Positions 1 to 28,208 of a stretch of DNA of 64,000 nucleotides are shown here, in pieces (positions within the stretch are counted from its first letter, which is position 1; each line of letters opens with the position of its first letter). Origin of the DNA: an uncultured Alphaproteobacteria bacterium (GTDB lineage: Bacteria; Pseudomonadota; Alphaproteobacteria; Methylaequorales; Methylaequoraceae). Under the pieces are notes generated by a model, which worked only from the letters and a program-made list of their open reading frames with translations, was not told the DNA's origin and made no database searches. A program made the translations under genes and the position numbers. Where the stretch lies: the NCBI GenBank assembly GCA_902536655.1, contig CACAYF010000001.1, positions 39,627 to 103,626 of the forward strand, in the 5' to 3' direction.

Positions 1-1202
1 AAAATGGTTTTAGCTATATTGAAATAGATAGGATTAAAAAATCGCTTCTAGACCTAACCAACAGAATAATTAACTATGACACTGGTGTATGGAGAACAGA
101 TTTACAAAAAATTAAAGAGCTTCTACCTAGAAGACAACTTATCGAAAATAGTAAACTTAAAAAAGAAGATAAAATCTTTTATTTACTTGAGGATTGTAGA
201 CGTTATGGAACGCTCCCTTTTGCAGGTTTAGCACGTGTGGGCTTCATTGCAGTAGAGTTTTTAAACTCTCTTGTAAAACAAAAAATCATTTCAATGGAGG
301 ATAAACAACGATTGTTGCTATCTTTGGAGACAATAACAACTTCTTTATCCAAGGATATAATAAAGTTGAGTAAAAGAAAGTTTTTAGAAAATTATGGTCA
401 TTTACGTCCTGGAACATATGATATAAGATCAAAAAGATATGATGAAAATTATGACGCTTACTTTAAGTACCATTCAAATGCATTAGAAAATTCAACGAAG
501 AAAAGCTTTTCTCTTAGTTCAAATCAGTTAAGGTTAATTGATAAATTAATAAAAAAACATAAAATTGACTATGATGCAGAATTTTTTGTAAGGTTTATAA
601 AAAAAGGTATTGAGGCTAGAGAATATGCTAAATTTGAATTTACAAAAAATGTAAGTCTGATTCTCAAACTTCTTACTGAATTAGGAGAGAAACTAGGTCT
701 GACGAGAGACGATTGTTCTTTTATTGATATTAGGGTAATTTACGAATTGATGAACTCTAGTAAAGATATTGATTTAGTTTTAAAAAAAACTATTGAGGTC
801 GGTAAAGAAGAATTTTCAAAAACCGAGAAGTTAAATCTTCCAAGTTTAATTTTTAAAACAAATGATATATGGATTTTCTCTCAATTACCCTCAGAACCAA
901 ATTTTATAACACAAAAAAAAGTAACTGGCCAAATTCAAGTTGCTTCAGAAGATAAAGTTGACTTAGATAGGAAAATTGTTTTTATAAATAGTGCTGATCC
1001 AGGGTATGATTGGATATTTACCAAAAAAATTGGCGGCTTGGTAACGAAGTATGGGGGAGCTAATTCACATATGGCTATAAGGGCCAATGAACTTGGTATT
1101 CCGTCCGTTATAGGAGCGGGAGAACAATTCTATGATTTTTGGATAAAATATAATTTTTTATCAATAGATTGTAGCAAAAAAAAAGTTGAAATTTTATCGT
1201 GA
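1..1202 (+). CDS. PEP-utilising-enzyme family kinase, 5'-partial (frame open from window start); putative L-glutamine kinase-like (Cj1418-like)
   Basis: Frame is open from base 1. C-terminal phosphohistidine 'mobile' domain motif GGANSHMAIRANELGIPSVIGAG as in PpsA/PPDK/rifampin phosphotransferase. The 4-nt overlap with the next gene indicates an operon. Confidence 0.5.
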   Translation, partial: NGFSYIEIDRIKKSLLDLTNRIINYDTGVWRTDLQKIKELLPRRQLIENSKLKKEDKIFYLLEDCRRYGTLPFAGLARVGFIAVEFLNSLVKQKIISMEDKQRLLLSLETITTSLSKDIIKLSKRKFLENYGHLRPGTYDIRSKRYDENYDAYFKYHSNALENSTKKSFSLSSNQLRLIDKLIKKHKIDYDAEFFVRFIKKGIEAREYAKFEFTKNVSLILKLLTELGEKLGLTRDDCSFIDIRVIYELMNSSKDIDLVLKKTIEVGKEEFSKTEKLNLPSLIFKTNDIWIFSQLPSEPNFITQKKVTGQIQVASEDKVDLDRKIVFINSADPGYDWIFTKKIGGLVTKYGGANSHMAIRANELGIPSVIGAGEQFYDFWIKYNFLSIDCSKKKVEILS

Positions 1203-1786
1203 AGATAGGTATTACACAAAGAGTTATTTATAAGAATGGAAACTCAATTGATATGCTTGATGTTGGATGGGATATTTTTTTGAAAAAATGCGGATTCGAA
1301 TATGAAGTGATTTCTAATAAAGAAAAAAGTATATCCTCTAATTATTTAAGGAAATTTAAAGGTATAATTTTTAGTGGAGGAAATAGCTTGCTTTCATGTA
1401 ATGGAGACTCAGAGGAAAGAGATAAGTTAGAGAAAAAAATTTATAAGTTAGCAACTAATATGCAAATTCCTATTATTGGTGTATGCAGAGGTATGCAACT
1501 TATTCAGGAAATGCACGGTATTAAATTGTCAAGAATTTTTGGTCATGTAAAAAAAAAACAGAGATTAATAATTAATAATAAGACTACAATTACAAATAGC
1601 TACCATAATTATGGTACAAAGAAAAATGTTAAAAATCTAGTTGTATTTGCTAAAGCTTTTGATGGTGTTATTAAAGGTATATTAAGCAAAAAAAAAAAAA
1701 TAGTTGGAATTATGTGGCATCCCGAAAGAAACGACCCCTTAAGACCCTATGATATCAATCTTTTTAAAAAGATATGTTCTAAATGA
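1199..1786 (+). CDS. Class I glutamine amidotransferase-like / peptidase C26 hydrolase (Cj1417-like)
   Basis: GATase1 catalytic Cys motif IIGVCRGMQL and His in GIMWHPE; 195 aa; GTGA/ATGA overlaps on both sides. Confidence 0.55.
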   Translation: MKIGITQRVIYKNGNSIDMLDVGWDIFLKKCGFEYEVISNKEKSISSNYLRKFKGIIFSGGNSLLSCNGDSEERDKLEKKIYKLATNMQIPIIGVCRGMQLIQEMHGIKLSRIFGHVKKKQRLIINNKTTITNSYHNYGTKKNVKNLVVFAKAFDGVIKGILSKKKKIVGIMWHPERNDPLRPYDINLFKKICSK

Positions 1787-2538
1787 AATCATTGATTTTA
1801 GCGGCAGGAAGAGGAAGCAGAATTAATGAAATTACAAAAAATCATCATAAGTCACTCATCAAACTTAAAAGAAAACCACTCATTAAATGGCAAATTGATG
1901 CACTAACTAAATTTTCAATAAAAACTTGTGTTGTTACTGGTTATAATGAAAACAATATAAAAAAAAGACTAAAACAAGTTAAAAATATAACCTTCATAAA
2001 AAATAATGAATGGCAATCAAGTAATATGTTATATTCGTTACTTTGCGCTAAGAAATGGATAGATAATGATGATTTAATTGTAAGTTATTCTGATATATTT
2101 TATTCAAAATCTGCAATAGAGAGTTTGTGCCAGACAAATAGTGCTCTCTCAATTCTTTATGATCCTAACTGGCATATATTATGGAGAATGCGTTTTAATA
2201 ACCCACTAGATGATGCTGAAACTTTTAAGTTGGATAGTTTTTCGTTTTTAAGAGAAATTGGAAGTCGGCCAAAAACCATTAAAGAATGTAAAGGCCAATT
2301 TATAGGACTAATAAAAATTTCAAAAAAAGGTTGGTCTATGATTAATGAATATATCTATCTTATTAAAGATAAGATAAAAAAAATTGATACCACAACTTTC
2401 TTGAATTTCCTTATATCAAAAGGCCTAAAAATAGAAGCTGTTCCCATATCAGATACATGGGGTGAAGTTGATACATTTGATGACTATAAGCTTTATAAAA
2501 AATTGATAAGACAAGATTATTTTAAATGGATGAAATAA
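1783..2538 (+). CDS. Nucleotidyltransferase (NTP_transferase fold; putative phospho-glutamine or phospho-alcohol cytidylyltransferase, Cj1416/LicC-like)
   Basis: N-terminal MKSLILAAGRGSRI matches the G-x-G-t-R-l nucleotidyltransferase signature; 251 aa. Confidence 0.55.
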   Translation: MKSLILAAGRGSRINEITKNHHKSLIKLKRKPLIKWQIDALTKFSIKTCVVTGYNENNIKKRLKQVKNITFIKNNEWQSSNMLYSLLCAKKWIDNDDLIVSYSDIFYSKSAIESLCQTNSALSILYDPNWHILWRMRFNNPLDDAETFKLDSFSFLREIGSRPKTIKECKGQFIGLIKISKKGWSMINEYIYLIKDKIKKIDTTTFLNFLISKGLKIEAVPISDTWGEVDTFDDYKLYKKLIRQDYFKWMK

Positions 2539-2813
2539 AAAGAATTAAAGCTTTCAAGAACAAAAAACAATTTAGAGAAATTACTAATTGTTTATATAAC
2601 ATTTTATGTGTTAAAAATGCTGATCAGGCATATAAATTTTGGAATAGCTTTATGGTAGAGTGTGGATTAGAAATTTATTATAAAAAACTTGGATTAAATA
2701 ATAAAAAAATTATTACAAAAATTACAGATAACGTAAATTTAGAAAGACTTTCAAATCATCCAATGAAAATGAATATAAGTGACTTAAAAAGTATTTTTCA
2801 TGGCTTCGAATAG
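2526..2813 (+). CDS. hypothetical protein (95 aa)
   Basis: ORF only; overlaps both neighbours by ~13 nt; no recognisable motif. Confidence 0.25.
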   Translation: MDEIKRIKAFKNKKQFREITNCLYNILCVKNADQAYKFWNSFMVECGLEIYYKKLGLNNKKIITKITDNVNLERLSNHPMKMNISDLKSIFHGFE

Positions 2814-4410
2814 TATAATTTCAGTTTTAGTAGATAATTTAAGAATTGATAGTCTTTCTGAAAAAGATTTTTCCAAAAAATTTTTTCCAAATTTCTTATA
2901 TTTAAAAAAGAATGGAATTTTTAAAGAAATAATATCTAACTCAAATACCACCAAATTTGTAATGCCATCTATTTTTACCCAATCTTATCCACTTGATTAT
3001 GGTGGGTATAATTCTGTAATATCACAAAGACCTAAAAGTTTTGTTGAATTAATTAGAAATCATGGCTTTAAAACTATCATGGTTCAAGGCGATGAAAATG
3101 ACGGTCCCATGAACAATTGCGAGAGAGGTTTTGAATCAATAAGTCTTTTCTATGATTATAGAATTTTGATTTATAACTTGATAAACCGAAACATTCTTTA
3201 CGATATAGAACTCTGGGAAAAAAAAATAATAAGTAATACTGATATTAAAGCTACACTAAAAAAAAAATTAAAACCAGTACTCCAGTATTTATATGAATCG
3301 AAAAATAGGTTATGTAATTCCAATCTTTCAAAATGGCATAAGAAAGCAGATAAAAAATTAAAAACTGACATTTTATCAGAAATTGAGCTTATTAATAAAG
3401 AACCAATATTAATAGCAAAAAAAATCTTAAGAATTAATCCTGCTTTTTATATAAGTTCTTTAGGGGAGGGAATAAATTTTTCTATAACATTAAAAATTAG
3501 ATATTTTTTTTTTAAATTAAAACAAAAATTTGATGGAATTTTAAAATTTTGTTTTCCTAATTTTACTTTTTTTAAACCTCAAAAATCTGTATTAGTTGAT
3601 GATATTTTTGATTCGATTAAATCAAAAATCCCTAAAAAAGATAAATTCTTTATATACAGCCATATAATGGACCTCCATGACAGAGGATATATTAATAGAC
3701 CTATTAGATTTTTACAAAAATTGTCATTATGGCCTAAATGGATTTTAAATAAACAAACCAACAGAACGTTTGAGAGGTTTCTCTATGATGTTTCTCTACA
3801 TTTTATTGATAAAGAATTAGGAAAACTTATAAAGCTATCAAGATTAAAGTCATGCCAGTTATTTATTTTTGGAGATCATGGTTGCGACATTCACGACATA
3901 GATCAAAGAAATTTTTCAGAGATTTTTGGTTTTAGAACACATAGAGAGCATATAAACGTTCCTTTAATTATTTATAACTCTAATAATAAAATAAACAATA
4001 AAGGTTTTCACGATAGCATGAGTATCTCCGCAACAATATTAGATGAGCTAAATATAAAACCTCATAAAAGTTTTAAAGGTAGATCAGTCTATAAAATAGG
4101 AAAAAAAATTATTATTAGTGAAAATTGTGGAAGAGGTAATTGCGATGTAGAGAGAAAAGATCTTTACTTTACAATCACTAGTAAGAAATACAAAATGTTT
4201 GTGTTAATACAAAAGAATAAAATAAAAATAAAAAGACTTTATGATTTAGTAAAAGATATTGATGAAATAAATAATCTAATTAATTTAAAAAGTTTAAAAA
4301 AAGAAATTAAGACCCTTCTGTCATTTTTTATAAATGAAAGAAAAGGTCTATTAAAAAAAAGAAAAATTAAAATAAATCTGCAAAATCTTAACAACTATAT
4401 CGAGCCCTAA
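2800..4410 (+). CDS. Alkaline-phosphatase-superfamily protein (sulfatase-like fold, probably a phosphotransferase rather than a sulfatase)
   Basis: N-terminal VDNLRID...TTKFVMPSIFTQSYPLDYG aligns with the sulfatase/AP signature, but the C-x-P-x-R catalytic Cys and Arg are replaced (VMPSI) and a Thr lies nearby. DLHDRGY and GDHGCD metal-ligand motifs are present. Confidence 0.45.
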   Translation: MASNSIISVLVDNLRIDSLSEKDFSKKFFPNFLYLKKNGIFKEIISNSNTTKFVMPSIFTQSYPLDYGGYNSVISQRPKSFVELIRNHGFKTIMVQGDENDGPMNNCERGFESISLFYDYRILIYNLINRNILYDIELWEKKIISNTDIKATLKKKLKPVLQYLYESKNRLCNSNLSKWHKKADKKLKTDILSEIELINKEPILIAKKILRINPAFYISSLGEGINFSITLKIRYFFFKLKQKFDGILKFCFPNFTFFKPQKSVLVDDIFDSIKSKIPKKDKFFIYSHIMDLHDRGYINRPIRFLQKLSLWPKWILNKQTNRTFERFLYDVSLHFIDKELGKLIKLSRLKSCQLFIFGDHGCDIHDIDQRNFSEIFGFRTHREHINVPLIIYNSNNKINNKGFHDSMSISATILDELNIKPHKSFKGRSVYKIGKKIIISENCGRGNCDVERKDLYFTITSKKYKMFVLIQKNKIKIKRLYDLVKDIDEINNLINLKSLKKEIKTLLSFFINERKGLLKKRKIKINLQNLNNYIEP

Positions 4411-4414
4411 ATTT

Positions 4415-5602
4415 ATGAAAAAAAATTTTAAAATTGGGATTTTTACTTCAAGTTTTTTACCCGCAGAGGGTGGAGCCGAAATTGGTCTTCATAATTTAGC
4501 AAACTCCTTTATAAAGCAAAATTTAGATGTGACGGTAATAACTAGTTATAGACATTATTTGTCATTAAAAAAAAAACATATTGAACTTCCCTATAAGGTT
4601 ATAAGCTTTCCTCCAAAAGTATTTCATTTGCTTAGTAAATTTAATACAATCGGATATTTATATCTCAGCTTGTTTTTTGAATATTTACGAAGAAAGAAAA
4701 ATTTTGATATTTGGCATATTTCGTTCGCGTACCCTTTAGGTGTCAATGCAATAAAATATTGTATTAAAAAAAAAATTCCACACGTTATGATGTGTCACGG
4801 AGAAGATATTCAAATAAACAAATGTATAAATTATGGTATAAGAAGAGATAATAAAATAAATAAAATTATCAAATTCTGGTTGCCAAAAGCTGACATGCTG
4901 ATTGCTAACTCCGAAAGTATTATTGCGGAGTATAATAAAATCAAAGTAAAAAAAATTGAACTAATTCCTTTTGGGATAGATTTAAAAAGGGTCAATAATT
5001 ACTCAGTAAAAAAAAAAATTCGAGAACATTTTAGCATACCTGATAAAGGTATCGTTTTTTTATGTTTAGGAAGATACCACCCAAAAAAAAATTTTGAGAC
5101 AGTCATTGATTCTTTTAAAAAAATTAATTTATCCCGTAAAGGAATTCATTTAATTATTGCTGGTAATGGCGTTAATATTCTAAAGAATAAAATTTTAAAA
5201 ATTAATAGAATACATCTTTATGAACCAAATAATGTTGAAAAATTAAACTACCCATCTAGTGAAATCTATGATTTGTATTCAGCCTGTGATATTTTTATTA
5301 TGCCTTCAATAATTGAAACACAGGGTTTGGTTACAATTGAGGCGGCTTCTTTTGGATTACCAATCATTATATCAAAAGTACCTGGGAACAAAGATATTTT
5401 TAAAGAGAATCAATGTTTATATTACGATGGATCTTCTAAACAATTAATTGAGAGAATATTTTTTATATTAGAAAATAAAAAAAAAATCATTTCACTTAAA
5501 CGTTATTCTAAATTTGTTGCTAAAAAATACGATTCAAGATTAATGTCTAAAAAATATTTGAACCTTTTTTATAAACTTAAATTGTTAAAAAATATAAAAT
5601 GA
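4415..5602 (+). CDS. Glycosyltransferase family 1 (GT4-like)
   Basis: C-terminal IMPSIIETQGLVTIEAASFGLPIIISKVPG is the GT1 E-x7-E motif. Confidence 0.65.
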   Translation: MKKNFKIGIFTSSFLPAEGGAEIGLHNLANSFIKQNLDVTVITSYRHYLSLKKKHIELPYKVISFPPKVFHLLSKFNTIGYLYLSLFFEYLRRKKNFDIWHISFAYPLGVNAIKYCIKKKIPHVMMCHGEDIQINKCINYGIRRDNKINKIIKFWLPKADMLIANSESIIAEYNKIKVKKIELIPFGIDLKRVNNYSVKKKIREHFSIPDKGIVFLCLGRYHPKKNFETVIDSFKKINLSRKGIHLIIAGNGVNILKNKILKINRIHLYEPNNVEKLNYPSSEIYDLYSACDIFIMPSIIETQGLVTIEAASFGLPIIISKVPGNKDIFKENQCLYYDGSSKQLIERIFFILENKKKIISLKRYSKFVAKKYDSRLMSKKYLNLFYKLKLLKNIK

Positions 5603-6834
5603 AAATATTATATTTGTGCAGATTATTTGACGGTTTCGAAACCAGTTTACTTAAGAGGAAATGGATTCCATCAGGTGTCCCAACAATCTATAAATTAATT
5701 GAGAAATTAGATAAAGAAAATTTGGAATGTAAATTTGTCATTTCTGATTTGGGAACCGGTATTCATCGTGAGTCAATAAATCAATATGATAAAATTAGAG
5801 AATTTTCACTTGAAGGCCTTAAAAATAATCTGATATTTATTCCTGGAGAATTTTTAATAAAAAAGAAATTTAGGAATCGAATATCGAGTTTGTTTATTTT
5901 TTTTTATAGGCAAATCTCCATTTTAAATCTTGCTATTAAGTTTTCACCTGACATCATTTACGTCGATAGGGCTAATTTATTTACAGGTGCAATTTTATCA
6001 AGGTTTTTTTCTAGAAAAGTTGTTTTGAGAATTATGGGGGTTTATCCTGATATGTGGGAAATTATAAGGGAAAAAAGATATTTTTTTACTAGGTGGTTGT
6101 ATAGATCAAATTTTAGTCATGTTATCTGTACAGGAGATGGTAGTGGAGGAAAACAATGGATGGATCTTATACTCAAAGATGAAGTTAAACGTTCTGTAAT
6201 GTTAAATGGAATAGATAAAAAAAATACATTTCCAACTTCATTTATTTTGAAAAAAAGTAATAAAGTTAAAATTTTATTCATGGGTAGAATGGAAAAAATC
6301 AAGGGTATTGAGGATTTTATCGATGCTATTTCTAATTTAAAAAATGAAGTAAAAAAAAAAATAGATATTTATATTGTTGGTACAGGTTCATTGAATGATA
6401 GAGTTGATTATCTAATAAAAAGTTTTTATTTAAGTAATTTGATTACTCGCATAAAAATTATTAAGCACGATGAGATAAAAAGTTTTATAAAACAGTTTGA
6501 TATATATGTTTCAATGAATAAAGGTGGGAATATAAGTAATTCTAATATAGAGTGTTTTTATAGCGGTTTATGTTGTATTATTCCAAATAAGGACGAAAAA
6601 CTTTTTAGAGATATCGATTTAGAAAAGTATTTTCCTAAAGATTGTCTATTACGTTTGAACAACGAAAAATTAGTTGAGGATTTGACAGATAAAATTTCTA
6701 AATTAGTTTTAAATAGAAAGATAATAAAAAAATATTCTAAGAATTTAAAAAAAAAATCTTTAAAAATATTTAAAGACTGGGATTTTAGAATAAATAAAGA
6801 ATTAGATTTAATAAAAAAGATAGCTAGTCATTAA
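5599..6834 (+). CDS. Putative glycosyltransferase (GT1-like C-terminal half)
   Basis: FMGRMEKIKGIEDFIDA...IYIVGTGS pattern typical of the GT1 C-domain; weak. Confidence 0.35.
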   Translation: MKILYLCRLFDGFETSLLKRKWIPSGVPTIYKLIEKLDKENLECKFVISDLGTGIHRESINQYDKIREFSLEGLKNNLIFIPGEFLIKKKFRNRISSLFIFFYRQISILNLAIKFSPDIIYVDRANLFTGAILSRFFSRKVVLRIMGVYPDMWEIIREKRYFFTRWLYRSNFSHVICTGDGSGGKQWMDLILKDEVKRSVMLNGIDKKNTFPTSFILKKSNKVKILFMGRMEKIKGIEDFIDAISNLKNEVKKKIDIYIVGTGSLNDRVDYLIKSFYLSNLITRIKIIKHDEIKSFIKQFDIYVSMNKGGNISNSNIECFYSGLCCIIPNKDEKLFRDIDLEKYFPKDCLLRLNNEKLVEDLTDKISKLVLNRKIIKKYSKNLKKKSLKIFKDWDFRINKELDLIKKIASH

Positions 6835-7637
6835 TTATCTATTAAAAGTAAATTTTTATTTTTTAGCTTATTTTTTAAAATGATAGGCAATTTATTTAAA
6901 TAAGTTTCTCTAGAGAGATAAAACTTGTGGTGATTCAAAGAATGTTGATTTTCAACTCCATAAGATAAGAAGATGGAATATTTCGGAAAATTTCCTTTCA
7001 CGCATCCTCCCGCATGAATAAGTCTTTGGTCAAAAATTACACAATCACCTGGTTTAGTCTCAAGTTTTTTAATTTTTCTTGAGAAAAAAAAATGCCCGAG
7101 ACTGTTAGAATCAAAAAATTTTCTCCAATAATGTCTCAAATAATTCCAAAATAAAAATTCCTTTTTATTTATTATGTTTTCTTGTTTATTTGATTTAGGT
7201 AATAAAATCAATGATGAACCACTATCATTGAAATCAGTTAGATAAATTGCAACACGAACAACTTTATAGGAATTCTTTTCTTCATTCCAATCGGGACCCT
7301 CTCCAAAGTTTCTATAAGCATTATCTCTGTGAAAAGCTCCTGCAGGAAGATTTACATGGATGTCAGAATGTTGTGTGTATTTTATTTTTTCGCCAAATAT
7401 TTTTTCAATAGTGGATATTAATTTCTTATTAAATATTATCGGCCAGAATGAGCTATTTTTTGTAACTCCGTCTGGACATCCAAAGAATTTGCTAGATGAG
7501 GAGAAGTCTTTACTTAAACTAAATAATTCATTAATTTTAGCTATATAATAATTTACTTCATTTTTAGAAAAAAAGTTTTCTAAAACAAAATAACCATTTT
7601 CATCAAATTTATTTTTGATATTATTTTTATAATTCAT
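6831..7637 (-). CDS. Putative Fe(II)/2-oxoglutarate dioxygenase (PhyH-like)
   Basis: AFHRDNAY ... VIFDQRLIHAGG, a His/Asp...His-like arrangement; 268 aa; weak. Confidence 0.35.
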   Translation of the reverse strand: MNYKNNIKNKFDENGYFVLENFFSKNEVNYYIAKINELFSLSKDFSSSSKFFGCPDGVTKNSSFWPIIFNKKLISTIEKIFGEKIKYTQHSDIHVNLPAGAFHRDNAYRNFGEGPDWNEEKNSYKVVRVAIYLTDFNDSGSSLILLPKSNKQENIINKKEFLFWNYLRHYWRKFFDSNSLGHFFFSRKIKKLETKPGDCVIFDQRLIHAGGCVKGNFPKYSIFLSYGVENQHSLNHHKFYLSRETYLNKLPIILKNKLKNKNLLLIDN

Positions 7638-7762
7638 TAAACTTTTTATTATATTATCAATTAAAATTATTAAAAATAAAATCTATAACTTTATGCTCCT
7701 AGAATCACATAAGTTTATAAAGAAAATTTATTTTATTATAATTTATACTTAATATTTCAAAT

Positions 7763-9397
7763 TTGGCAATGTCACTTAATAAAATCAATAAAACCGAGGT
7801 GGTTATTTCTGATCAAACTGGTTGGTCCAAAGTAACAAAGAAAGACTATTATTATTTTTATACTGGATGTAAATCATTTGTGGATAAATTTACAAAAGAA
7901 TATTTATTAAAAAAAAGAAACGAAAATGATACTTTGGAATACCTTAAAAAATTTAATTCAAACAGTTCTTTAATTTTTAAAGGAAGAGATTTATTATTTT
8001 GTTACACAAGTTTTTCTAGAGATTATCCAATTTTCTATAAACTTATTGGAAATAAACTTGTTGTCTCAGATAATGTATACAGTATCAATGAAAATAGTGA
8101 TTCGATATATAAAGATGGTTTAAACGAATTTTTATTCTCTGGATACGTTTTAAACAATAGAACGCTAAATGAAAATATATTTTCTTTAGAACCATCTCAA
8201 ATTATTTATATAAAGAAGAATAATGAAATAACAATTAAAAATTATTTTCGTTATCATGAATTAAAAAAAAAACAACAATCCTTAAATCAGTTTTTTTTTG
8301 AGTTCAATGAGATTATAGATAACTCAATTGAGAAAATAATAGATAAATCAAATGAAGCAAAAATTTATATACCCTTGAGTGGCGGGTTAGATTCAAGATT
8401 TTTATTAGCTAAATTTTGTGAAAAAAAATATAAAAATATTGAATGTTTTTCTTATGGTTTGTCGAATAACTCAGATGCAGTTATTGCTAAGAAAGTTGCA
8501 AATCATCTTGGTATAAATTGGTCATATGTATGGTTTGAAAAGAAAAAATATAGAAAAATGTTTAATTCTAAGTTCAAACAAGATTATGATAAATTTTCTG
8601 ATCATTTTTCAACGCTGCCAAATTACCAAGAAATATTTTTTTTAAAAGATTTAAATGAAAAAAAATATTTTAAAGAAAACTCATTTATAATTAATGGACA
8701 AAGTGCAGACTTTCACACTGGACTTCACATTCCCGAAAACTTATACTTAATTGACATTGATCAGGAAAAAAAATTTGACAATAAAGAAGTAATAGCAGCA
8801 ATTATAGATAAACATTTATCACTTTGGCCAAATGAAAAAAGTAAAGAAAATTATAAACATCTTACCAATAAAATATTTTCTGGCTTAGCTGATTTGAATG
8901 ATATTTATAACTTATCCGATATCTATGAATACTGGGAATTTAAAGAAAGACAATGTAAATATATTGTAAATGGACAAAGAGCATATGATTTCATGAATAT
9001 AAAATGGTTTTTACCTTTCTGGGATTCGGAATACATTAAATTTTGGTCAACAGTCCCTTTAGAATTAAGATATAAGCAATCGCTTTATAAAAAAATTCTG
9101 AAAAAATGGGACTATTGCGGATTATTCACTAAGATTAACAAAAAAGTACAGGCATTTGAAGGAGTTGAAGATATTTTAGTAAAATCTATATCAAAAATTA
9201 CAAAAATTCTTTTTGGTAAAACCAATAGCCAAGAAATTATCAAGTATTTTGACTATTATTCAAGATATGGAAATAGTTACCAACTGTTTTCTTTATCAAT
9301 ATTTTTATTAAATAGACATAGAATAAATAATGCTTTTTCATTGCATACCAAACATTGGCTTAATTCAAATGAAAAAATTAGGGAACAATTTTCTTAA
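7763..9397 (+). CDS. PP-loop ATP pyrophosphatase, asparagine-synthase / WbpG-like N-acetyl-sugar amidotransferase (no glutaminase domain)
   Basis: SGGLDSRF PP-loop motif; no N-terminal Cys glutaminase domain. Confidence 0.5.
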   Translation: MAMSLNKINKTEVVISDQTGWSKVTKKDYYYFYTGCKSFVDKFTKEYLLKKRNENDTLEYLKKFNSNSSLIFKGRDLLFCYTSFSRDYPIFYKLIGNKLVVSDNVYSINENSDSIYKDGLNEFLFSGYVLNNRTLNENIFSLEPSQIIYIKKNNEITIKNYFRYHELKKKQQSLNQFFFEFNEIIDNSIEKIIDKSNEAKIYIPLSGGLDSRFLLAKFCEKKYKNIECFSYGLSNNSDAVIAKKVANHLGINWSYVWFEKKKYRKMFNSKFKQDYDKFSDHFSTLPNYQEIFFLKDLNEKKYFKENSFIINGQSADFHTGLHIPENLYLIDIDQEKKFDNKEVIAAIIDKHLSLWPNEKSKENYKHLTNKIFSGLADLNDIYNLSDIYEYWEFKERQCKYIVNGQRAYDFMNIKWFLPFWDSEYIKFWSTVPLELRYKQSLYKKILKKWDYCGLFTKINKKVQAFEGVEDILVKSISKITKILFGKTNSQEIIKYFDYYSRYGNSYQLFSLSIFLLNRHRINNAFSLHTKHWLNSNEKIREQFS

Positions 9398-20025: not shown

Positions 20026-21291
20026 ATGTTGATAACAATGGATGATTTTTCTCAAACATTTACAAAAGATTCTATCTTAAAAAAATTTCATGCTGTGAGA
20101 AAACAGTCATTAAAATTGATTAAACCACTTGAAGCTGAAGATATGGTTATTCAAACAGAAACTTTTGTAAGTCCAATTAAATGGCATTTAGGACATACTA
20201 CTTGGTTTTTTGAGAAATTCTTATTAATCCCTAATCTCAAAAATTATATATCGTTTGATGAATCTTTCGATTATATTTTCAATTCATACTACTTAGGTGT
20301 AGGTTCATTCAATGAAAAGTCAAAAAGGGGATTTCTAAATAGACCATTTTATCAAAGGGTACTTGAATATAGAAAGTATGTAGACTCTTATATGAACGAT
20401 TTATTAAATTTGAAATTATCTCAAGACTTAAACTTTAAAGTTGAATTAGGCATTAATCACGAGCAGCAACATCAAGAGCTTATTTTAATGGACATTAAAC
20501 ATATATTTTTTAGTAACCCATTAAAACCTAAGTTTTTAGAAACTAAAAAAAATCATAAAAAAAAGGAAGTTAGATATTCAAATGAATTTAAATGTAATGA
20601 AAATAAAAAATTTAAATTTGGGAATAATGCAGAAAATTTTTTTTATGATAATGAAAGCCCAAGTTCTTTTTGTTATTTGCAGCCTTTTAGACTTGATAAT
20701 TTTGTAACAAATAAAGATTGGAAGGAATTCATGAGTGAAGGTGGATATGAGAATTTTAAATATTGGCTTTCTGATGGATGGGACTTCATTCAGAAAAATA
20801 AAATTAGAAAACCAATGTATTGGGTTGATTCTAATAATTATTTTACTTTTTATGGTGTAAAAAAAATTTTAGACCAATTACCAGTTTCAAATATTAGTTA
20901 TTATGAAGCTCAAGCTTTCGCAAACTATAAAAAAAAAAGACTGCCAACAGAATTCGAGATGGAATTTGTTTTGAGTAGTTCTAAAAAAAATGGAAATTTT
21001 CTTGAACAAGCGAATTTTGAAGAGATTAATTATAACACAGAGCTTTTTAATATGTCATTTTATGGTAATCTTTGGGTCTGGACATCCAGTTATTACGTAC
21101 CCTATAAAAATTACAAACCTTTTAAAAATAATCTATCAGAATATAATTCAAAATTTATGTGCAATCAATTAGTACTCAAGGGTGGCTCATTTGCATCACC
21201 CAAGAGCCATATAAGACCCTCTTATCGAAATTTTTATTATCCTCAAGATAGATGGCAGTTTTCTGGTTTAAGGTTGGCAGAGGATATTTAA
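20026..21291 (+). CDS. egtB: Ergothioneine biosynthesis sulfoxide synthase EgtB (DinB_2 + FGE-sulfatase domains)
   Basis: WHLGHTTWFFEKFLL and NHEQQHQELIL (DinB His triad); C-terminal KGGSFASPKSHIRPSYRNFYYPQDRWQFSGLRLAEDI FGE domain. At 421 aa it is not the longer OvoA. Confidence 0.7.
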   Translation: MLITMDDFSQTFTKDSILKKFHAVRKQSLKLIKPLEAEDMVIQTETFVSPIKWHLGHTTWFFEKFLLIPNLKNYISFDESFDYIFNSYYLGVGSFNEKSKRGFLNRPFYQRVLEYRKYVDSYMNDLLNLKLSQDLNFKVELGINHEQQHQELILMDIKHIFFSNPLKPKFLETKKNHKKKEVRYSNEFKCNENKKFKFGNNAENFFYDNESPSSFCYLQPFRLDNFVTNKDWKEFMSEGGYENFKYWLSDGWDFIQKNKIRKPMYWVDSNNYFTFYGVKKILDQLPVSNISYYEAQAFANYKKKRLPTEFEMEFVLSSSKKNGNFLEQANFEEINYNTELFNMSFYGNLWVWTSSYYVPYKNYKPFKNNLSEYNSKFMCNQLVLKGGSFASPKSHIRPSYRNFYYPQDRWQFSGLRLAEDI

Positions 21292-22259
21292 TGAATAATT
21301 TAGACTTTCTAAATTTTTTTGATTCTATTGAGGATCACTCTCTGACAGTGTTAAAGGGTTTAGATTCAAAACCTCAAAAAAAAATTAATTCCAAATATTT
21401 TTATGACAAAAAAGGATCAATATTATTCGATAAAATTACAAAACTAGCTGACTATTATCCCTCAAAAATTGAATGTGAAATTTTAGAAAAAAATAGGGAT
21501 AATATAAGAAAAATGTTACCTTCAAATTCTGTTATTATAGAATTTGGAAGTGGCTCAAACCGGAAAATAAAAAAATTACTGAATGCTATTGATAAACCAA
21601 TCGAATATATTCCAATTGACATAAGCAAAGAGTTTTTATTTAAAAATGCTAAAGACTCAGCAAAAGATTTTCCAAATCTAAAAATTAAAGCAATTTGTGC
21701 AGATTTTAATCAGATAGATGTACTACAAAGAATTATAGGAAAAAAAAAATCGAAAATTGGTTTCTTTCCTGGCTCTACAGTGGGAAATTATAGTCCAGAG
21801 GACGCAAAAAAATTATTAATTAACTTTTCAAGAATTCTTGGAGATGAAAGTCATCTTGTAATTGGTGTTGATTTAAAAAAGGATATAGAAGTTTTAGAAA
21901 AAGCATATAATGACTCTAAAGGAATAACCGCTGAATTTAATAAAAATATTCTTAATGGTGTGAATAAAATATGTGGCACCATATTTGATTCAAAACTTTT
22001 TTATCATAAAGCCTTCTTTAATAAAAAAAAGAGTAGGATAGAAATGCATTTAGTGAGTAAAAAAAAACAAATAGTTGAAATATTAAATACAAAAATTCAT
22101 TTTAAAGAAGGAGAAACTATTCATACTGAAAATTCTTATAAATATACCTTAAGTAGTTTTCAGAATTTAGCGGAGTTGTCAAATTTTCAAATCATAGATG
22201 TCCTAAAAGATAAGAGATCCTTTTTTGGTGTATTCATTTTGAAAGTAAAAAGTATTTGA
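21291..22259 (+). CDS. egtD: L-histidine N-alpha-methyltransferase EgtD
   Basis: EFGSGSNRKIKKLLNAI...YIPIDIS matches the EgtD ELGSGSS...YVPVDVS signature. The start overlaps the egtB stop (TAATG). Confidence 0.65.
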   Translation: MNNLDFLNFFDSIEDHSLTVLKGLDSKPQKKINSKYFYDKKGSILFDKITKLADYYPSKIECEILEKNRDNIRKMLPSNSVIIEFGSGSNRKIKKLLNAIDKPIEYIPIDISKEFLFKNAKDSAKDFPNLKIKAICADFNQIDVLQRIIGKKKSKIGFFPGSTVGNYSPEDAKKLLINFSRILGDESHLVIGVDLKKDIEVLEKAYNDSKGITAEFNKNILNGVNKICGTIFDSKLFYHKAFFNKKKSRIEMHLVSKKKQIVEILNTKIHFKEGETIHTENSYKYTLSSFQNLAELSNFQIIDVLKDKRSFFGVFILKVKSI

Positions 22260-27773: not shown

Positions 27774-28166
27774 TCATTTTCTAATCAAGTCAGCACACCC
27801 TGCAGTTGCATCAATGCCAGATTCAACATAACAGGCACTCAGTCTGTTTTTAGTTAGGAGTTTTCCAAGATTGTAACCTCTACTATTTGAAGCGACCCAA
27901 GTAATAGTCTTGTTATCGGGATGAATCACCCCAAAAAAATTTTTGGTACCGTCTGTGTATGAAAAAGTACCTTTGAATCTTCGACCTTTTTGCTCTATAA
28001 TTTCAACTTTTTTTTCCCAAGTTCTAAATCCTCTTTGTTCTGATATAGTTTTGTTTTCTCCAATCCAAGTTCCAATTATATTTGGAACCTTCTCAGATGA
28101 AAAGACGTTGTTAAAGCTAATCATAGCAAAACAGAAAAAAGAGTAGATGAATATTCTAAAGTTCAT
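27774..28166 (-). CDS. secreted hypothetical protein (130 aa)
   Basis: N-terminal signal peptide, two C-terminal Cys. Confidence 0.3.
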   Translation of the reverse strand: MNFRIFIYSFFCFAMISFNNVFSSEKVPNIIGTWIGENKTISEQRGFRTWEKKVEIIEQKGRRFKGTFSYTDGTKNFFGVIHPDNKTITWVASNSRGYNLGKLLTKNRLSACYVESGIDATAGCADLIRK

Positions 28167-28208
28167 ATTATTATTATTGTTATAAATAAAAAAAATTCAA
28201 CAATTATA

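What the first reader, a model, noticed from the sequence alone, without database searches (positions are those of the whole stretch)
1..4410. Operon mirroring the Campylobacter Cj1418-Cj1417-Cj1416 phosphoramidate (MeOPN) precursor pathway, plus an AP-superfamily putative phosphotransferase
Seen in sequence: three translationally coupled genes (4-nt overlaps). The first is a PEP-synthase/PPDK-like enzyme with a C-terminal phosphohistidine domain (GGANSHMAIRANELGIP). The second is a class I glutamine-amidotransferase-like hydrolase (GVCRGMQL ... WHPE). The third is a nucleotidyltransferase (LILAAGRGSRI).

Established knowledge: in Campylobacter jejuni, O-methyl phosphoramidate capsule modification starts with Cj1418 (an L-glutamine kinase of the PEP-synthase family), then Cj1416 (a phospho-glutamine cytidylyltransferase), then Cj1417 (a GATase-type hydrolase releasing cytidine diphosphoramidate). 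Those genes are transcribed in the order 1418-1417-1416, which is the order seen here.

A Cj1415-like P-loop kinase is not seen; the 95-aa ORF that follows has no P-loop. The next gene instead encodes an alkaline-phosphatase-superfamily protein. Its sulfatase Cys and Arg are substituted and a Thr is in the nucleophile region, as in phospho-alcohol transferases of the EptA/LtaS type.

Inference: this is a phospho-glutamine / phosphoramidate-type glycan decoration system sitting in a surface-polysaccharide island, and it may use a new type of transferase. To my knowledge such a module has not been described in streamlined marine bacteria.
Basis: partly seen in the sequence, partly recalled or inferred. 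Interest (0 to 1): 0.78.

Follow-up and report, generated by a model that had tools for sequence, protein, structure and literature searches.

The report
Phosphoramidate-donor operon beside sulfatase-like enzyme
A marine alphaproteobacterium carries the three-gene core of the Campylobacter pathway that makes a rare phosphorus-nitrogen sugar decoration, and a recombination scar joins it to a threonine-bearing, sulfatase-shaped enzyme from a family that may attach such charged groups to surface sugars.

Summary
Genes at 3-1202, 1199-1786 and 1783-2538 overlap by 4 nt. They are a glutamine-kinase-type PEP-utilizer, a class-I amidotransferase-type hydrolase and a cytidylyltransferase. This trio, in this order, occurs in all 16 related genome loci fetched, from Helicobacter to archaea, so the cassette is widespread and known.

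The "missing" Cj1415-like kinase is probably a window-edge effect. Metagenome contig L028 is 98.8% identical over window 1-2576. It continues upstream with the rest of gene 1, a Cj1415-type kinase and another sulfatase-like gene.

Identity to L028 stops at 2576. The "95-aa ORF" is the 3' remnant of an iron alcohol dehydrogenase gene. In relatives that gene is intact and follows PEP mutase and phosphonopyruvate decarboxylase, directly upstream of the orthologue of the 2800-4410 gene. The adjacency in this window is therefore a cassette swap.

The 2800-4410 product is cytoplasmic and has an S1-sulfatase fold, with threonine where sulfatases carry formylglycine. Its family sits beside Cj1415-type kinases and three donor modules (sulfate, phosphoramidate, phosphonate). 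A group-transferase role is plausible but unproven.

The organism has flagellar genes and is not SAR11.

The parts
3..1202 (+). Gene 1, 5'-truncated by the window edge: the C-terminal 399 aa of an L-glutamine-kinase-type PEP-utilizing enzyme (Cj1418 type), including the phosphohistidine swivel domain.
   Evidence: PF00391 at 50 bits, and NF004508 at 468.5 bits over model positions 383-788/789. The His of GGANSHM is conserved in 29 homologues. Homologues are named 'glutamine kinase' by JGI. The full-length allele in L028 (98.8% DNA identity over window 1-2576) scores 941 bits against a cut-off of 501.
1199..1786 (+). Gene 2: class-I glutamine-amidotransferase-type hydrolase (Cj1417 type, gamma-glutamyl-CDP-amidate hydrolase-like). 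It is translationally coupled to gene 1 through a GTGA overlap.
   Evidence: Peptidase_C26 and GATase hits. The best NCBIfam is NF045546 at 117.1 bits over the full length. This is below the equivalog cut-off of 250, and the next best family scores 49. Cys96, His174 and Glu176 are conserved in 26 homologues. The gene follows the kinase gene in 15 of 16 genome loci and lies just past the cytidylyltransferase, on the opposite strand, in L014.
1783..2538 (+). Gene 3: LicC/PntC-fold cytidylyltransferase of the Cj1416 (phosphoglutamine) type, with an ATGA overlap to gene 2.
   Evidence: NTP_transf_3 at 52.5 bits; the best PDB sequence hit is LicC 1jyk at 8.9e-11. In a tree of 35 cytidylyltransferases it falls in the clade whose members sit next to glutamine kinase/hydrolase genes in all taxa. 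That clade is separate from the cytidylyltransferases found in PEP-mutase contexts.
2515..2576 (.). Recombination junction between the phosphoramidate-donor cassette on the left and the remnant of a phosphonate cluster on the right.
   Evidence: Window 1-2576 is 98.76% identical to L028 12387-14962, and the identity ends at 2576. Window 2515/2562-2896 matches L084/L025 at about 79%. The junction is also present on TARA scaffold L001.
2514..2813 (+). 3' remnant of an iron-containing alcohol dehydrogenase gene (phosphonoacetaldehyde-reductase-like context).
   Evidence: tblastn aligns window 2514-2810 to residues 278-376 of the 376-aa Fe-ADH of L084 at 60.6% identity. The ORF is 71% and 67% identical to the Fe-ADH C-termini in L025 and L084. 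Pfam Fe-ADH and ADH_Fe_C hit the intact homologues. The ORF itself has no family hit.
2800..4410 (+). Cytoplasmic alkaline-phosphatase-superfamily enzyme with an S1-sulfatase fold and a Thr51 nucleophile candidate. It is a candidate transferase of anionic groups (phosphonyl, phosphoramidyl or sulfuryl) to glycans.
4415..6834 (+). Two glycosyltransferase genes (GT4 at 4415-5602, GT1-type at 5599-6834), co-directional and tightly packed with the genes above.
   Evidence: Glycos_transf_1 and Glyco_transf_4 hits. There is a 4-nt gap after 4410 and a 4-nt overlap at 5599-5602. No terminator-like site lies in 1-8000.

Best explanation
**Genes 1-3 (shown or strongly supported).** They are the core of a portable cassette that makes cytidine diphosphoramidate.
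- The cytidylyltransferase joins the phosphoglutamine to CMP.
- The amidotransferase-type hydrolase releases glutamate and leaves CDP-amidate.

**The kinase (inferred).** A Cj1415-type kinase that adds the 3'-phosphate very probably lies just upstream of the window. It does so in the 98.8%-identical allele on contig L028, whose order is methyltransferase-like gene, sulfatase-like gene, kinase, glutamine kinase, hydrolase, cytidylyltransferase.

**The junction (shown).** Immediately after gene 3 the window crosses a recombination junction. To its right are the 3' stump of an Fe-alcohol-dehydrogenase gene and the sulfatase-like gene. In relatives these follow PEP mutase and phosphonopyruvate decarboxylase. 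One donor-supply module (phosphonate) has therefore been replaced by another (phosphoramidate) in front of the same sulfatase-like gene and two glycosyltransferase genes.

**The sulfatase-like protein (inferred, about 45-50% likely).** It belongs to a family of cytoplasmic enzymes with an S1-sulfatase fold in which Thr replaces formylglycine. In my reading they act as ping-pong group transferases.
- The Thr takes a monoanionic tetrahedral group (phosphonyl, phosphoramidyl or sulfuryl) from a nucleotide-activated donor.
- It then passes the group to a sugar hydroxyl during cytoplasmic glycan assembly.

Whether this particular copy now uses the phosphoramidate donor, or is an orphan of the lost phosphonate module, cannot be decided from sequence.
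For: **Cassette identity.**
- NF004508: 468.5 bits for the half protein. Full-length alleles score 941 bits (L028) and 977 bits (L020) against a cut-off of 501.
- NF045546 is the best family for gene 2 by a wide margin.
- The catalytic Cys/His/Glu and the phospho-His are conserved.
- JGI names homologues 'glutamine kinase'.
- Homologues of all three genes lie close together, kinase gene first, in 15 of the 16 loci (the sixteenth, L006, ends inside the hydrolase gene). These include a Gammaproteobacteria MAG, Kordiimonas, eight Helicobacter, Nomurabacteria, Nanoarchaeales, a Deltaproteobacteria MAG, Methanosarcinales and Omnitrophota.
- An APS-kinase-like gene is nearby in 12 of the 16.
- Gene 3 falls in the cytidylyltransferase clade that is adjacent to glutamine kinase genes.

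**Kinase upstream.**
- L028 shows 98.76% identity over window 1-2576.
- It has a 175-aa kinase overlapping the start of the 777-aa glutamine kinase gene.
- That kinase scores NF004041 at 185 bits (cut-off 127) and falls below the canonical CysC model.

**Junction.**

**Sulfatase-like family.**
- The model is high-confidence and has a sulfatase fold.
- Thr is invariant and Cys never occurs at that position.
- No signal peptide or membrane segment.
- Purifying selection.
- 521 representative clusters at E<=1e-30.
- Of 32 independent metagenome loci with at least 6 kb of flank, 24 have a Cj1415-type kinase within 5 kb, 12 an ATP sulfurylase/pyruvate kinase pair, and 9 the glutamine kinase cassette.
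- Several loci have PEP mutase modules.
- Loci often hold 2-3 divergent paralogues, as acceptor-specific transferases do.
- In L028 the sulfatase-like gene is the only transferase candidate inside the operon.
- In 7 sulfate-only loci, no sulfotransferase Pfam family was among those hitting 4 or more of the 131 ORFs.
- No sulfotransferase Pfam family is on record within 10 kb in L020, L022 or L023.

**Established chemistry (my own knowledge).** Sulfatases whose formylglycine is replaced by Ser form a stable sulfo-enzyme. EptA and LtaS use a Thr-linked covalent intermediate.
Against: - I could not compare anything directly with the C. jejuni proteins. No sequence was obtainable, and the primer search found nothing.
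- Gene 2 scores below the NCBIfam equivalog cut-off (117 against 250).
- No NCBIfam model for Cj1416 appeared among the hits.
- The kinase is not in the window, so completeness of the pathway in this genome is inferred.
- For the sulfatase-like protein, nothing shows transferase activity.
- The adjacency in this window is a recombination scar.
- In several low-GC marine loci a 225-aa sulfotransferase-like gene sits right next to the sulfatase-like gene and kinase, and could be the real transferase.
- Azospirillum pairs the cassette with Sulfotransfer_1 proteins. Helicobacter pairs it with TagF-like and DUF2972 proteins.
- The kinase association equally fits a by-product 3'-phosphatase.
- Seven of the 32 well-flanked loci show none of the modules.
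- Thr51 as nucleophile rests on conservation and position in the model. Profile alignments did not align that segment to known nucleophiles.
Confidence: 0.6

Rival explanations
1. The sulfatase-like proteins are not transferases. They are 3'-nucleotidases that clear the spent donors (pAp from PAPS, pCp from 3'-phospho-CDP-amidate), as CysQ does. They would therefore travel with the Cj1415-type kinase as part of a self-contained donor-economy module, together with pyruvate kinase for ATP regeneration. Sulfotransferase-like or other proteins would carry out the actual transfer.
For: - The most constant neighbour of the family is the kinase: 24 of 32 well-flanked loci. This holds whichever donor module is present.
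- Operons such as kinase > ATP sulfurylase > pyruvate kinase > sulfatase-like gene look like supply modules.
- A sulfotransferase-like gene lies beside the sulfatase-like gene in several phosphoramidate-type loci.
Against: - Two or three divergent paralogues in one locus (L023, L029, L034) are hard to explain for a housekeeping phosphatase in small genomes.
- The composite L084/L025 locus has the orthologue of the window gene. It shows no kinase in the 3.9 kb upstream or the 10 kb downstream.
- The fold is nearest to enzymes that act on monoanionic esters (sulfatases, PMH) rather than to phosphomonoesterases.
- In L028 no other transferase candidate is present in the operon.
Confidence: 0.17
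2. In this genome the 2800-4410 gene is functionally unrelated to genes 1-3. It is a leftover phosphonate-specific enzyme (phosphonyl transferase or phosphonate-ester hydrolase) that lost its PEP mutase module in the cassette swap. The phosphoramidate pathway would use a different, cognate enzyme encoded upstream of the window.
For: - Orthologues at 72-76% identity follow PEP mutase, phosphonopyruvate decarboxylase and Fe-ADH.
- The truncated Fe-ADH stump remains.
- The L028 allele of the cassette has its own sulfatase-like gene upstream of the kinase, only 44% identical to the window gene.
- No PEP mutase is found in the 64-kb window.
Against: - The gene is intact and keeps all conserved residues.
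- It is 98% identical to a copy in another assembly (P0121).
- It remains tightly packed with the cassette and two glycosyltransferase genes, with no terminator.
- Within its clade, contexts already vary between sulfate, phosphoramidate and phosphonate modules, so donor specificity may be loose.
Confidence: 0.3
3. Genes 1-3 make something other than a phosphoramidate donor. One example is a CDP-linked glutamine or glutamyl conjugate used directly. In that case the resemblance to Cj1418-1416 reflects only shared folds.
For: - Gene 2 is below the curated equivalog cut-off (117 against 250).
- NF004508 carries the product name 'hypothetical protein'.
- No assay exists for any non-Campylobacter member, to my knowledge.
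Against: - The four-gene combination is conserved from Helicobacter (order Campylobacterales) to archaea, with one gene order.
- The catalytic residues are intact.
- The cytidylyltransferase forms a dedicated clade.
- The kinase belongs to the NF004041 subfamily, in which the Helicobacter cluster member scores highest (260 bits).
Confidence: 0.07

Closest known systems
Campylobacter jejuni O-methyl phosphoramidate donor pathway: Cj1418 (L-glutamine kinase), Cj1416 (CTP:phosphoglutamine cytidylyltransferase), Cj1417 (gamma-glutamyl-CDP-amidate hydrolase), Cj1415 (CDP-amidate kinase). Pathway as summarised in PMC11800397 and PMC6429109.
   Same: - The same three enzyme types, in the same transcription order.
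- Translational coupling between the genes.
- A conserved phosphohistidine and Cys-His-Glu triad.
- A Cj1415-type kinase adjacent in the near-identical allele L028.
- A location inside a surface-glycan island.
   Different: - The host is a flagellated, low-GC marine alphaproteobacterium.
- The kinase lies upstream of the glutamine kinase gene rather than downstream.
- Gene 2 is too diverged to pass the NCBIfam equivalog cut-off.
- No DUF2972 or TagF-like gene was found in the marine loci.
- No methyltransferase was found among the genes I scanned in the window.
- I could not make a direct sequence comparison with the C. jejuni proteins.
S1 (formylglycine-dependent) sulfatases and phosphonate monoester hydrolases
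   Same: - The first-strand Asp and the GDHG metal ligands.
- The C-terminal YDL..DP.E..N motif.
   Different: - Thr51 replaces the Cys/Ser that becomes formylglycine, and the Arg of CxPxR is absent.
- No signal peptide, so the protein is cytoplasmic.
- A helical insertion of about 155 residues at 121-276.
- The genes lie in biosynthetic, not catabolic, loci.
Phospho-alcohol transferases of the alkaline phosphatase superfamily (EptA/MCR-1, EptC, LtaS/LtaP, OpgB, GacH)
   Same: - A Thr nucleophile candidate with Asp/His metal ligands.
- The central H-x-x-x-H...NRP and GDHG segments align with EptA.
- The proposed chemistry: a covalent Thr-linked monoanionic phosphoryl-type intermediate passed to a hydroxyl acceptor.
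   Different: - No N-terminal membrane domain.
- Cytoplasmic rather than periplasmic or extracellular.
- The inferred donors are nucleotides, not lipids.
PAPS system (ATP sulfurylase, APS kinase CysC, PAPS sulfotransferases) and Cj1421/Cj1422 MeOPN transferases
   Same: - The family co-occurs with ATP sulfurylase + kinase operons, and with the phosphoramidate analogue of PAPS.
- The logic is the same: a 3'-phosphorylated nucleotide donor plus one or more acceptor-specific transferases.
   Different: - The kinases are of the NF004041/Cj1415-like subfamily, not canonical CysC.
- The candidate transferase has a sulfatase fold, not a sulfotransferase fold.
- Homology to Cj1421/1422 could not be tested. 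Homologues of the 2800-4410 protein are absent from all 8 Helicobacter loci.
Phosphonate tailoring clusters (PEP mutase fused to a cytidylyltransferase, phosphonopyruvate decarboxylase, PntC; PMC8942020)
   Same: - Orthologues of the window's sulfatase-like gene directly follow such a cluster (L084/L025).
- 'Sulfatase' genes in PEP mutase neighbourhoods have been noted before (PMC8942020).
   Different: - In the window the phosphonate genes are gone except for an Fe-ADH stump.
- In L058 and others a Cj1415-type kinase sits inside the phosphonate cluster. To my knowledge this has not been described.

Membership tests
L-glutamine kinase (Cj1418 type; NCBIfam NF004508/PRK05849) | C-terminal PEP-utilizer swivel domain with the catalytic histidine | tested here: met
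   PF00391 at 50 bits over residues 323-392. The His of GGANSHM is conserved in 29 homologues.
L-glutamine kinase (Cj1418 type; NCBIfam NF004508/PRK05849) | Whole-protein score at or above the curated cut-off (501 bits), including the N-terminal ATP-grasp part | tested here: inconclusive
   The window holds only the C-terminal half, which scores 468.5 bits over model positions 383-788. The L028 allele, 98.8% identical in DNA over the shared part, scores 941 bits full length. L020 scores 977 bits and carries PPDK_N. The model's own product name is 'hypothetical protein'; the functional label comes from JGI names.
L-glutamine kinase (Cj1418 type; NCBIfam NF004508/PRK05849) | [quoted passage not shown] | not testable with these tools
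   Needs an enzyme assay.
gamma-glutamyl-CDP-amidate hydrolase (Cj1417 type; NF045546) | Class-I amidotransferase Cys-His-Glu triad | tested here: met
   C96, H174 and E176 are conserved in 26 homologues. GATase and Peptidase_C26 hits.
gamma-glutamyl-CDP-amidate hydrolase (Cj1417 type; NF045546) | Score at or above the curated equivalog cut-off (250 bits) | tested here: not met
   117.1 bits (114.9 for the L028 allele). It is the best family by 68 bits and matches end to end. I therefore call the gene Cj1417-like, not an equivalog.
gamma-glutamyl-CDP-amidate hydrolase (Cj1417 type; NF045546) | Gene placed between or beside the glutamine kinase and cytidylyltransferase genes | tested here: met
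   True in the window. In 15 of the 16 genome loci it directly follows the kinase gene. In L014 it lies on the opposite strand just past the cytidylyltransferase.
CTP:phosphoglutamine cytidylyltransferase (Cj1416 type) | Nucleotidyltransferase fold with the N-terminal G-x-G-x-R signature | tested here: met
   LAAGRGSR at residues 5-12. NTP_transf_3 at 52.5 bits. LicC 1jyk is the best PDB hit.
CTP:phosphoglutamine cytidylyltransferase (Cj1416 type) | Orthology to Cj1416 rather than to phosphonate (PntC) or sugar-phosphate transferases | tested here: inconclusive
   It clusters with all the cytidylyltransferases that lie beside glutamine kinase genes, including those of Helicobacter, apart from the PEP-mutase-context ones. 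The Cj1416 sequence itself was not available, and no NCBIfam model for it appeared among the hits.
CDP-amidate kinase (Cj1415 type; NF004041 subfamily) | A P-loop APS-kinase-fold gene in the cluster | tested here: not met
   None in the 64-kb window. It is present directly upstream in L028, L002, L003 and others: NF004041 at 163-193 bits, cut-off 127. Its absence from the window is most simply explained by the window edge.
S1 formylglycine-dependent sulfatase | Cys/Ser-x-Pro-x-Arg motif giving formylglycine | tested here: not met
   The nucleophile position is Thr in 90 of 92 representatives and Ser in 2, never Cys. The Arg is absent.
S1 formylglycine-dependent sulfatase | Sulfatase fold with N-terminal metal-binding Asp and a D-H pair | tested here: met
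   [not shown]
EptA/LtaS-type phospho-alcohol transferases | Thr nucleophile with Asp/His (Glu) metal site | tested here: inconclusive
   T51 is invariant and sits at the N-terminus of helix 51-60 in the model, 39 residues after D12. Profile alignments did not cover this segment. No coordinates were available to measure distances.
EptA/LtaS-type phospho-alcohol transferases | N-terminal multi-pass membrane domain with an extracytoplasmic catalytic domain | tested here: not met
   The catalytic domain starts at residue 5. The maximum 19-residue hydropathy is 1.05. Family members are 530-550 aa and align from residue 1.
Cj1421/Cj1422 MeOPN transferases | Sequence or fold homology to Cj1421/Cj1422 | not tested
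   No C. jejuni sequence could be obtained, and the AlphaFold database library was not available. Indirect evidence: no homologue of the 2800-4410 protein occurs in 16 non-marine cassette loci, including 8 Helicobacter. Those loci carry DUF2972 and TagF-like genes instead. That Cj1421/1422 contain DUF2972 is my recollection only.

The most novel reading that the evidence does not exclude
A family of cytoplasmic, Thr-nucleophile enzymes with a sulfatase fold (about 500 clusters at 50% identity) supplies the so far unidentified transferases that put sulfate, phosphoramidate or phosphonate groups on the surface glycans of marine bacteria.

- They would use a common class of donors: NMP-X conjugates 3'-phosphorylated by Cj1415-type kinases. 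These are PAPS, 3'-phospho-CDP-amidate and possibly a 3'-phospho-CMP-phosphonate.
- The donor-supply modules would be exchanged as cassettes in front of the transferase genes.
- The window would capture one such swap in the act.
Probability: 0.33. Interest if true: 0.85.

Novelty: new variant of a known kind. Interest (0 to 1): 0.64.

Why it matters
Phosphoramidate sugar decorations are regarded as a Campylobacter speciality.

- **The donor cassette is far more widespread.** It occurs as a widely shared module in marine bacteria, CPR bacteria and archaea. In the ocean it is shuffled with sulfate- and phosphonate-donor modules inside the hypervariable glycan islands that set phage and grazer recognition.
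- **The attaching enzymes are unknown.** The enzymes that attach phosphonate to marine glycans are not known (Acker et al. 2022 name none). Those that attach phosphoramidate outside Campylobacter are, to my knowledge, also unknown. Marine phosphonoglycans are a major pool of dissolved organic phosphorus.
- **There is now a concrete candidate.** A sulfatase fold re-tooled with Thr is a soluble protein that can be expressed and tested. It would also be a clear case of a hydrolase scaffold turned into a transferase.
- **There is a practical lesson too.** It could be recognised only by comparison with relatives.

Tried and rejected
1. **Getting C. jejuni sequences for direct comparison.**
   - An exact search of genome contigs with the published cj1416 primer CS-350 (from PMC3907429) found nothing.
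   - The Raushel/Holden manuscripts (PMC5938751, PMC5629633, PMC5938747, PMC6643271) are not held.
   - The PDB holds no Cj1415-1418 chain detectable by sequence.
   - The AlphaFold database library was unavailable.
2. **Retrieving the window's own upstream DNA.**
   - The exact-protein look-up failed for gene 2, and for gene 3 gave only a 996-bp scaffold.
   - The genome collection returned no close relative.
   - The gap was closed indirectly through L028.
3. **My working assumption that the host is SAR11.** I dropped it after finding flagellar genes and MarineAlpha8-like FliF hits.
4. **Reading the 95-aa ORF as a small accessory protein.** I rejected this once it aligned to the C-terminus of an Fe-ADH.
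5. **Aligning the nucleophile segment to AslA, EptA or PDB sulfatases by profile methods.** Only the central and C-terminal parts aligned.
6. **Treating the kinases in sulfate-type operons as ordinary CysC.** The tree and NCBIfam place them with the Cj1415-like subfamily.
7. **Promoter scan.** It was uninformative in this AT-rich DNA: 44 sites found against 55 expected.
8. **Plasmid collection.** The glutamine kinase family is present there in Azospirillum, Vibrio, Cupriavidus and Agrobacterium. There is no homologue of the sulfatase-like protein.

Full report
**1. What is in the sequence**

The first 6.8 kb of the window is one co-directional, tightly packed gene string.

| Coordinates | Feature |
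|---|---|
| 3-1202 | Gene 1, open from the window edge |
| 1199-1786 | Gene 2, GTG start, GTGA overlap |
| 1783-2538 | Gene 3, ATGA overlap |
| 2526-2813 | A 95-codon ORF overlapping both neighbours |
| 2800-4410 | A 536-codon gene |
| 4415-5602, 5599-6834 | Two glycosyltransferase genes |

No terminator-like site occurs in 1-8000.

**2. Genes 1-3**

- **Gene 1** carries the PEP-utilizer phosphohistidine domain.
  - It matches NCBIfam NF004508 at 468.5 bits over the C-terminal half of that model, which is all the window contains.
  - Full-length relatives pass the 501-bit cut-off easily: 977 bits for L020 and 941 for L028.
  - JGI names homologues with 44-50% identity 'glutamine kinase'.
- **Gene 2** is a class-I amidotransferase-type protein.
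  - Its best curated family by far is the gamma-glutamyl-CDP-amidate hydrolase model: 117 bits end to end, with the next family at 49.
  - This is under the equivalog cut-off of 250.
- **Gene 3** is a LicC/PntC-fold nucleotidyltransferase.
- The catalytic Cys96/His174/Glu176 of gene 2 and the His of GGANSHM in gene 1 are conserved across 26 and 29 homologues respectively.

**3. The cassette is widespread**

A scan of one genome per species found 16 loci encoding relatives of gene 1. They come from:
- a Gammaproteobacteria MAG and Kordiimonas;
- eight enterohepatic Helicobacter;
- Nomurabacteria and Nanoarchaeales;
- a Deltaproteobacteria MAG;
- two Methanosarcinales and an Omnitrophota MAG.

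In all 16 loci a hydrolase homologue lies next to the kinase gene. A cytidylyltransferase homologue follows nearby in 15; the sixteenth contig, L006, ends inside the hydrolase gene. An APS-kinase-like gene is nearby in 12.

A tree of 35 cytidylyltransferases puts gene 3 in the clade whose members sit beside glutamine kinase genes in every taxon. That clade is separate from the cytidylyltransferases of PEP mutase clusters.

The same cassette lies on plasmids of Azospirillum, Vibrio, Cupriavidus and Agrobacterium. It has been reported in archaeal Borg elements. The published pathway assigns Cj1418, Cj1416, Cj1417 and Cj1415 to making 3'-phospho-CDP-amidate from glutamine, ATP and CTP (PMC11800397; PMC6429109). 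I conclude that genes 1-3 are a new member of this known cassette. I could not obtain the C. jejuni sequences for a direct comparison.

**4. The missing kinase**

No kinase is in the window. However, metagenome contig L028 is 98.76% identical to window 1-2576 without a gap, and it continues upstream. The glutamine kinase gene there is 777 codons. It is preceded, with overlap, by a 175-codon kinase. Before that come a 529-codon sulfatase-like gene and a 296-codon methyltransferase-like gene.

The order 'sulfatase-like gene, kinase, glutamine kinase, hydrolase, cytidylyltransferase' recurs in L002, L003, L030, L031, L034, L043, L080, L089, L092 and L094.

All these kinases best match NCBIfam NF004041. 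The kinase from the Helicobacter rodentium cluster scores highest on that model (260 bits). All of them fall below the cut-off of the canonical CysC model, and they branch apart from E. coli CysC.

**5. The junction and the 95-codon ORF**

Identity to L028 ends abruptly at 2576, 38 nt after the gene 3 stop. From about 2515-2562 onward the window instead matches contigs L084 and L025 at about 79%.

There, the sequence homologous to the 95-codon ORF is the last quarter of an intact 376-codon iron alcohol dehydrogenase gene. Window 2514-2810 aligns to residues 278-376 of that protein at 60.6% identity.

That gene follows a cytidylyltransferase-PEP mutase fusion and a thiamine-diphosphate decarboxylase, which together make a phosphonate-building module. 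It overlaps by 14 nt the orthologue of the 2800-4410 gene, which is 72-76% identical.

The '95-aa ORF' is therefore a gene stump, and the window records a cassette swap: a phosphoramidate-donor module now stands where a phosphonate module stood. An independent TARA scaffold spans the same junction. Substitution ratios are low:
- 0.15 for the 2800-4410 gene against its L025 orthologue;
- 0.22-0.25 for the stump against the Fe-ADH C-termini.

So the sulfatase-like gene is under purifying selection. The value for the stump mostly reflects divergence that accumulated while both copies were still intact genes, so it does not show whether the stump is now constrained.

**6. The 2800-4410 protein**

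- The AlphaFold model built on 30 homologues is confident: pLDDT 92.4, pTM 0.92.
- Profile searches agree and show the sulfatase C-terminal motif.
- Across 92 representatives, down to about 20% identity, D12, D337, D359, H360 and E441 are invariant.
- The residue at the N-terminus of helix 51-60 is Thr in 90 and Ser in 2, and never Cys. D291 and H293 are more than 90% conserved.
- There is no signal peptide or membrane segment.
- A helical insertion of about 155 residues (121-276) is specific to the family.
- The family has 521 representative clusters at E<=1e-30 among 1.84 billion proteins.

It is not a formylglycine sulfatase and not an EptA/LtaS-type membrane enzyme. Thr51 as nucleophile is an inference from conservation and topology. 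Sequence profiles did not align that segment.

**7. What the family keeps company with**

A metagenome scan gave 76 loci containing family members. Mapping module proteins onto them shows three recurrent neighbours:
- **Sulfate type:** kinase, ATP sulfurylase, pyruvate kinase, then the sulfatase-like gene. Examples are L022, L036, L044, L055, L059, L067, L081, L086 and L099. The sulfurylase and pyruvate kinase pass curated cut-offs.
- **Phosphoramidate type:** as in section 4.
- **Phosphonate type:** for example L058, with sulfatase-like gene, kinase, cytidylyltransferase-PEP mutase, decarboxylase, cytidylyltransferase, Fe-ADH. L033, L055, L075, L076 and L084/L025 are further cases.

Some loci combine modules (L020, L029, L079). 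Of 32 independent loci with at least 6 kb of flank:

| Neighbour within 5 kb | Loci (of 32) |
|---|---|
| Cj1415-type kinase | 24 |
| Sulfate module | 12 |
| Glutamine kinase cassette | 9 |
| None of these | 7 |

Loci often hold two or three divergent paralogues. The window's copy belongs to a clade whose members occur in all three contexts.

**8. Interpretation of the sulfatase-like family**

The common denominator is a nucleotide-activated, monoanionic tetrahedral group (sulfate, phosphoramidate or phosphonate), usually together with a kinase that adds a 3'-phosphate.

*Evidence for a transferase:*
- From my own knowledge, sulfatases whose formylglycine is replaced by serine trap a stable sulfo-enzyme, and EptA/LtaS work through a Thr-linked intermediate. 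A Thr-bearing sulfatase fold is thus well suited to ping-pong group transfer.
- Paralogue multiplicity fits acceptor-specific transferases.
- In L028 the sulfatase-like gene is the only transferase candidate in the operon.
- No sulfotransferase Pfam family is on record within 10 kb in L020, L022 or L023. None was among the families hitting 4 or more of 131 ORFs from seven further sulfate-type loci.

*Evidence against:*
- Several phosphoramidate-type loci also carry a 225-aa sulfotransferase-like gene next to the sulfatase-like gene.
- Azospirillum pairs the cassette with Sulfotransfer_1 proteins. Helicobacter pairs it with TagF-like and DUF2972 proteins.
- A role as a 3'-phosphatase for the spent nucleotides pAp and pCp would explain the kinase association equally well.

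I put the transferase reading at roughly 45-50%, the by-product phosphatase at 15-20%, and the rest on other roles. The question of whether this particular copy is an orphan in this genome is separate from both.

**9. Context and host**

The island around the operon encodes:
- asparagine-synthase-like amidotransferases;
- a PhyH-type dioxygenase;
- DegT aminotransferases;
- a UDP-GlcNAc 2-epimerase;
- further glycosyltransferases.

L028 adds NeuB and a CMP-sugar synthetase. Further along, the window encodes FlhB, FliI, FliG, FliF, a MotB-family protein, RpoN and a sigma-54 activator. FliF is 87% identical to a protein of 'Alphaproteobacteria bacterium MarineAlpha8_Bin1', and the other named close hits are 'Rickettsiales bacterium' MAGs. 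The host is therefore a low-GC (24-38% per 2-kb bin, mostly 25-31%), flagellated marine alphaproteobacterium, not Pelagibacter.

**10. Novelty**

No paper in the searched library combines phosphoramidate with SAR11 or Pelagibacter. A recent Pelagibacter pangenome preprint mentions sulfotransferases in the hypervariable island but no sulfatase-like genes or glutamine kinase. 'Sulfatase' genes in PEP mutase neighbourhoods have been noted in passing (PMC8942020). Acker et al. 2022 do not name a phosphonate-attaching enzyme.

The cassette itself is a new member of a known kind. The new elements are its coupling in marine genomes to a Thr-type sulfatase-fold family and to interchangeable donor modules, and the Cj1415-type kinases in sulfate and phosphonate operons.

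**Verdict:** a new variant of a known kind, of moderate to high interest. The mechanistic claim about the sulfatase-like protein is still open.

Noticed in passing
window 40934-63236: Flagellar and regulatory genes are present: rpoN (40934-42394, -), a MotB-family gene (44731-45915), flhB (49378-50529, -), fliI (56674-57993, -), fliG (58881-59930, -), fliF (59955-61679, -) and a sigma-54 activator (62052-63236, -). FliF is 87% identical to a MarineAlpha8_Bin1 protein. The host is therefore not SAR11.
   Followed up: partly
window 20026-23392: Three consecutive genes resemble an ergothioneine/ovothiol-type set. They are an FGE-sulfatase + DinB_2 protein (EgtB/OvoA-like), a histidine-specific methyltransferase (Methyltransf_33, 323 bits) and a class-V aminotransferase.
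   Followed up: no
window 30942-33971: A 1009-aa protein has only a weak, partial match to PEP carboxylase: 63.8 bits over residues 115-612. It is either an atypical PEP carboxylase or something else.
   Followed up: no
L022 7032-11605; also L036, L044, L055, L059, L067, L081, L086, L099: A conserved marine operon runs kinase > ATP sulfurylase > pyruvate kinase > sulfatase-like gene. The kinase is of the Cj1415-like NF004041 subfamily, not canonical CysC. The pyruvate kinase mirrors the ATP-regeneration step used in in-vitro PAPS cascades (PMC9885120). Why a Cj1415-type kinase serves a sulfate module is unexplained.
   Followed up: partly
L058 456-6692: The operon runs sulfatase-like gene > Cj1415-type kinase > cytidylyltransferase-PEP mutase > phosphonopyruvate decarboxylase > cytidylyltransferase > Fe-ADH. 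A kinase inside a phosphonate cluster hints at a 3'-phosphorylated CMP-phosphonate donor, which to my knowledge is undescribed.
   Followed up: partly
L053 9911-14006; also L100 and L035: A sulfatase-like gene followed by a non-canonical kinase lies next to a canonical CysC-type kinase on the opposite strand. No sulfurylase, glutamine kinase or PEP mutase lies within 10 kb. Two different APS-kinase-fold genes side by side suggest different substrates.
   Followed up: partly
L102 (Azospirillum lipoferum 4B plasmid AZO_p6, record 27861-40465): The glutamine kinase cassette is flanked by three things. One is an 846-aa protein with a C-terminal APS_kinase domain and an unassigned 650-aa N-terminal part. 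The others are a SAM methyltransferase and two Sulfotransfer_1-domain proteins. The sulfotransferase-fold proteins may be the phosphoramidate transferases in that lineage.
   Followed up: partly
L008 4471-5541 and 11808-13300; also L009, L010, L011, L019: Helicobacter versions of the cluster insert a 157-169-aa protein and a TagF-like (Glyphos_transf) protein of about 329 aa between the hydrolase and cytidylyltransferase genes. Some also carry a DUF2972 protein. None has a sulfatase-like gene.
   Followed up: partly
L003 5797-6474; L034 13018-13680; L043 2064-2726; L080 1903-2568; L002 5855-6462; L029 5841-6485: A 225-aa sulfotransferase-like gene (weak Sulfotransfer_3/1 hits) lies upstream of the sulfatase-like gene in phosphoramidate-type loci, directly so in all but L029/L032. 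It occurs even where no sulfate module is visible. It is an alternative candidate for the phosphoramidate transferase.
   Followed up: partly
L028 8210-9100; L023 11653-12543; L024, L029, L061, L068, L072: A 296-aa class-I methyltransferase-like gene sits directly beside a sulfatase-like gene in these loci, in both phosphoramidate and sulfate contexts. Homologues also occur elsewhere in L034, L067, L069 and L071. In L028 it would complete an O-methyl phosphoramidate toolkit. Its role in sulfate-type loci is unclear.
   Followed up: no
L022 11620-13071; also L079, L081, L083, L086 and weaker in others: A conserved soluble protein of about 483 aa with no Pfam hit directly follows the sulfatase-like gene in L022, L079, L081, L083 and L070. 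A homologue lies about 5 kb downstream in L086. All these are sulfate-type loci.
   Followed up: no
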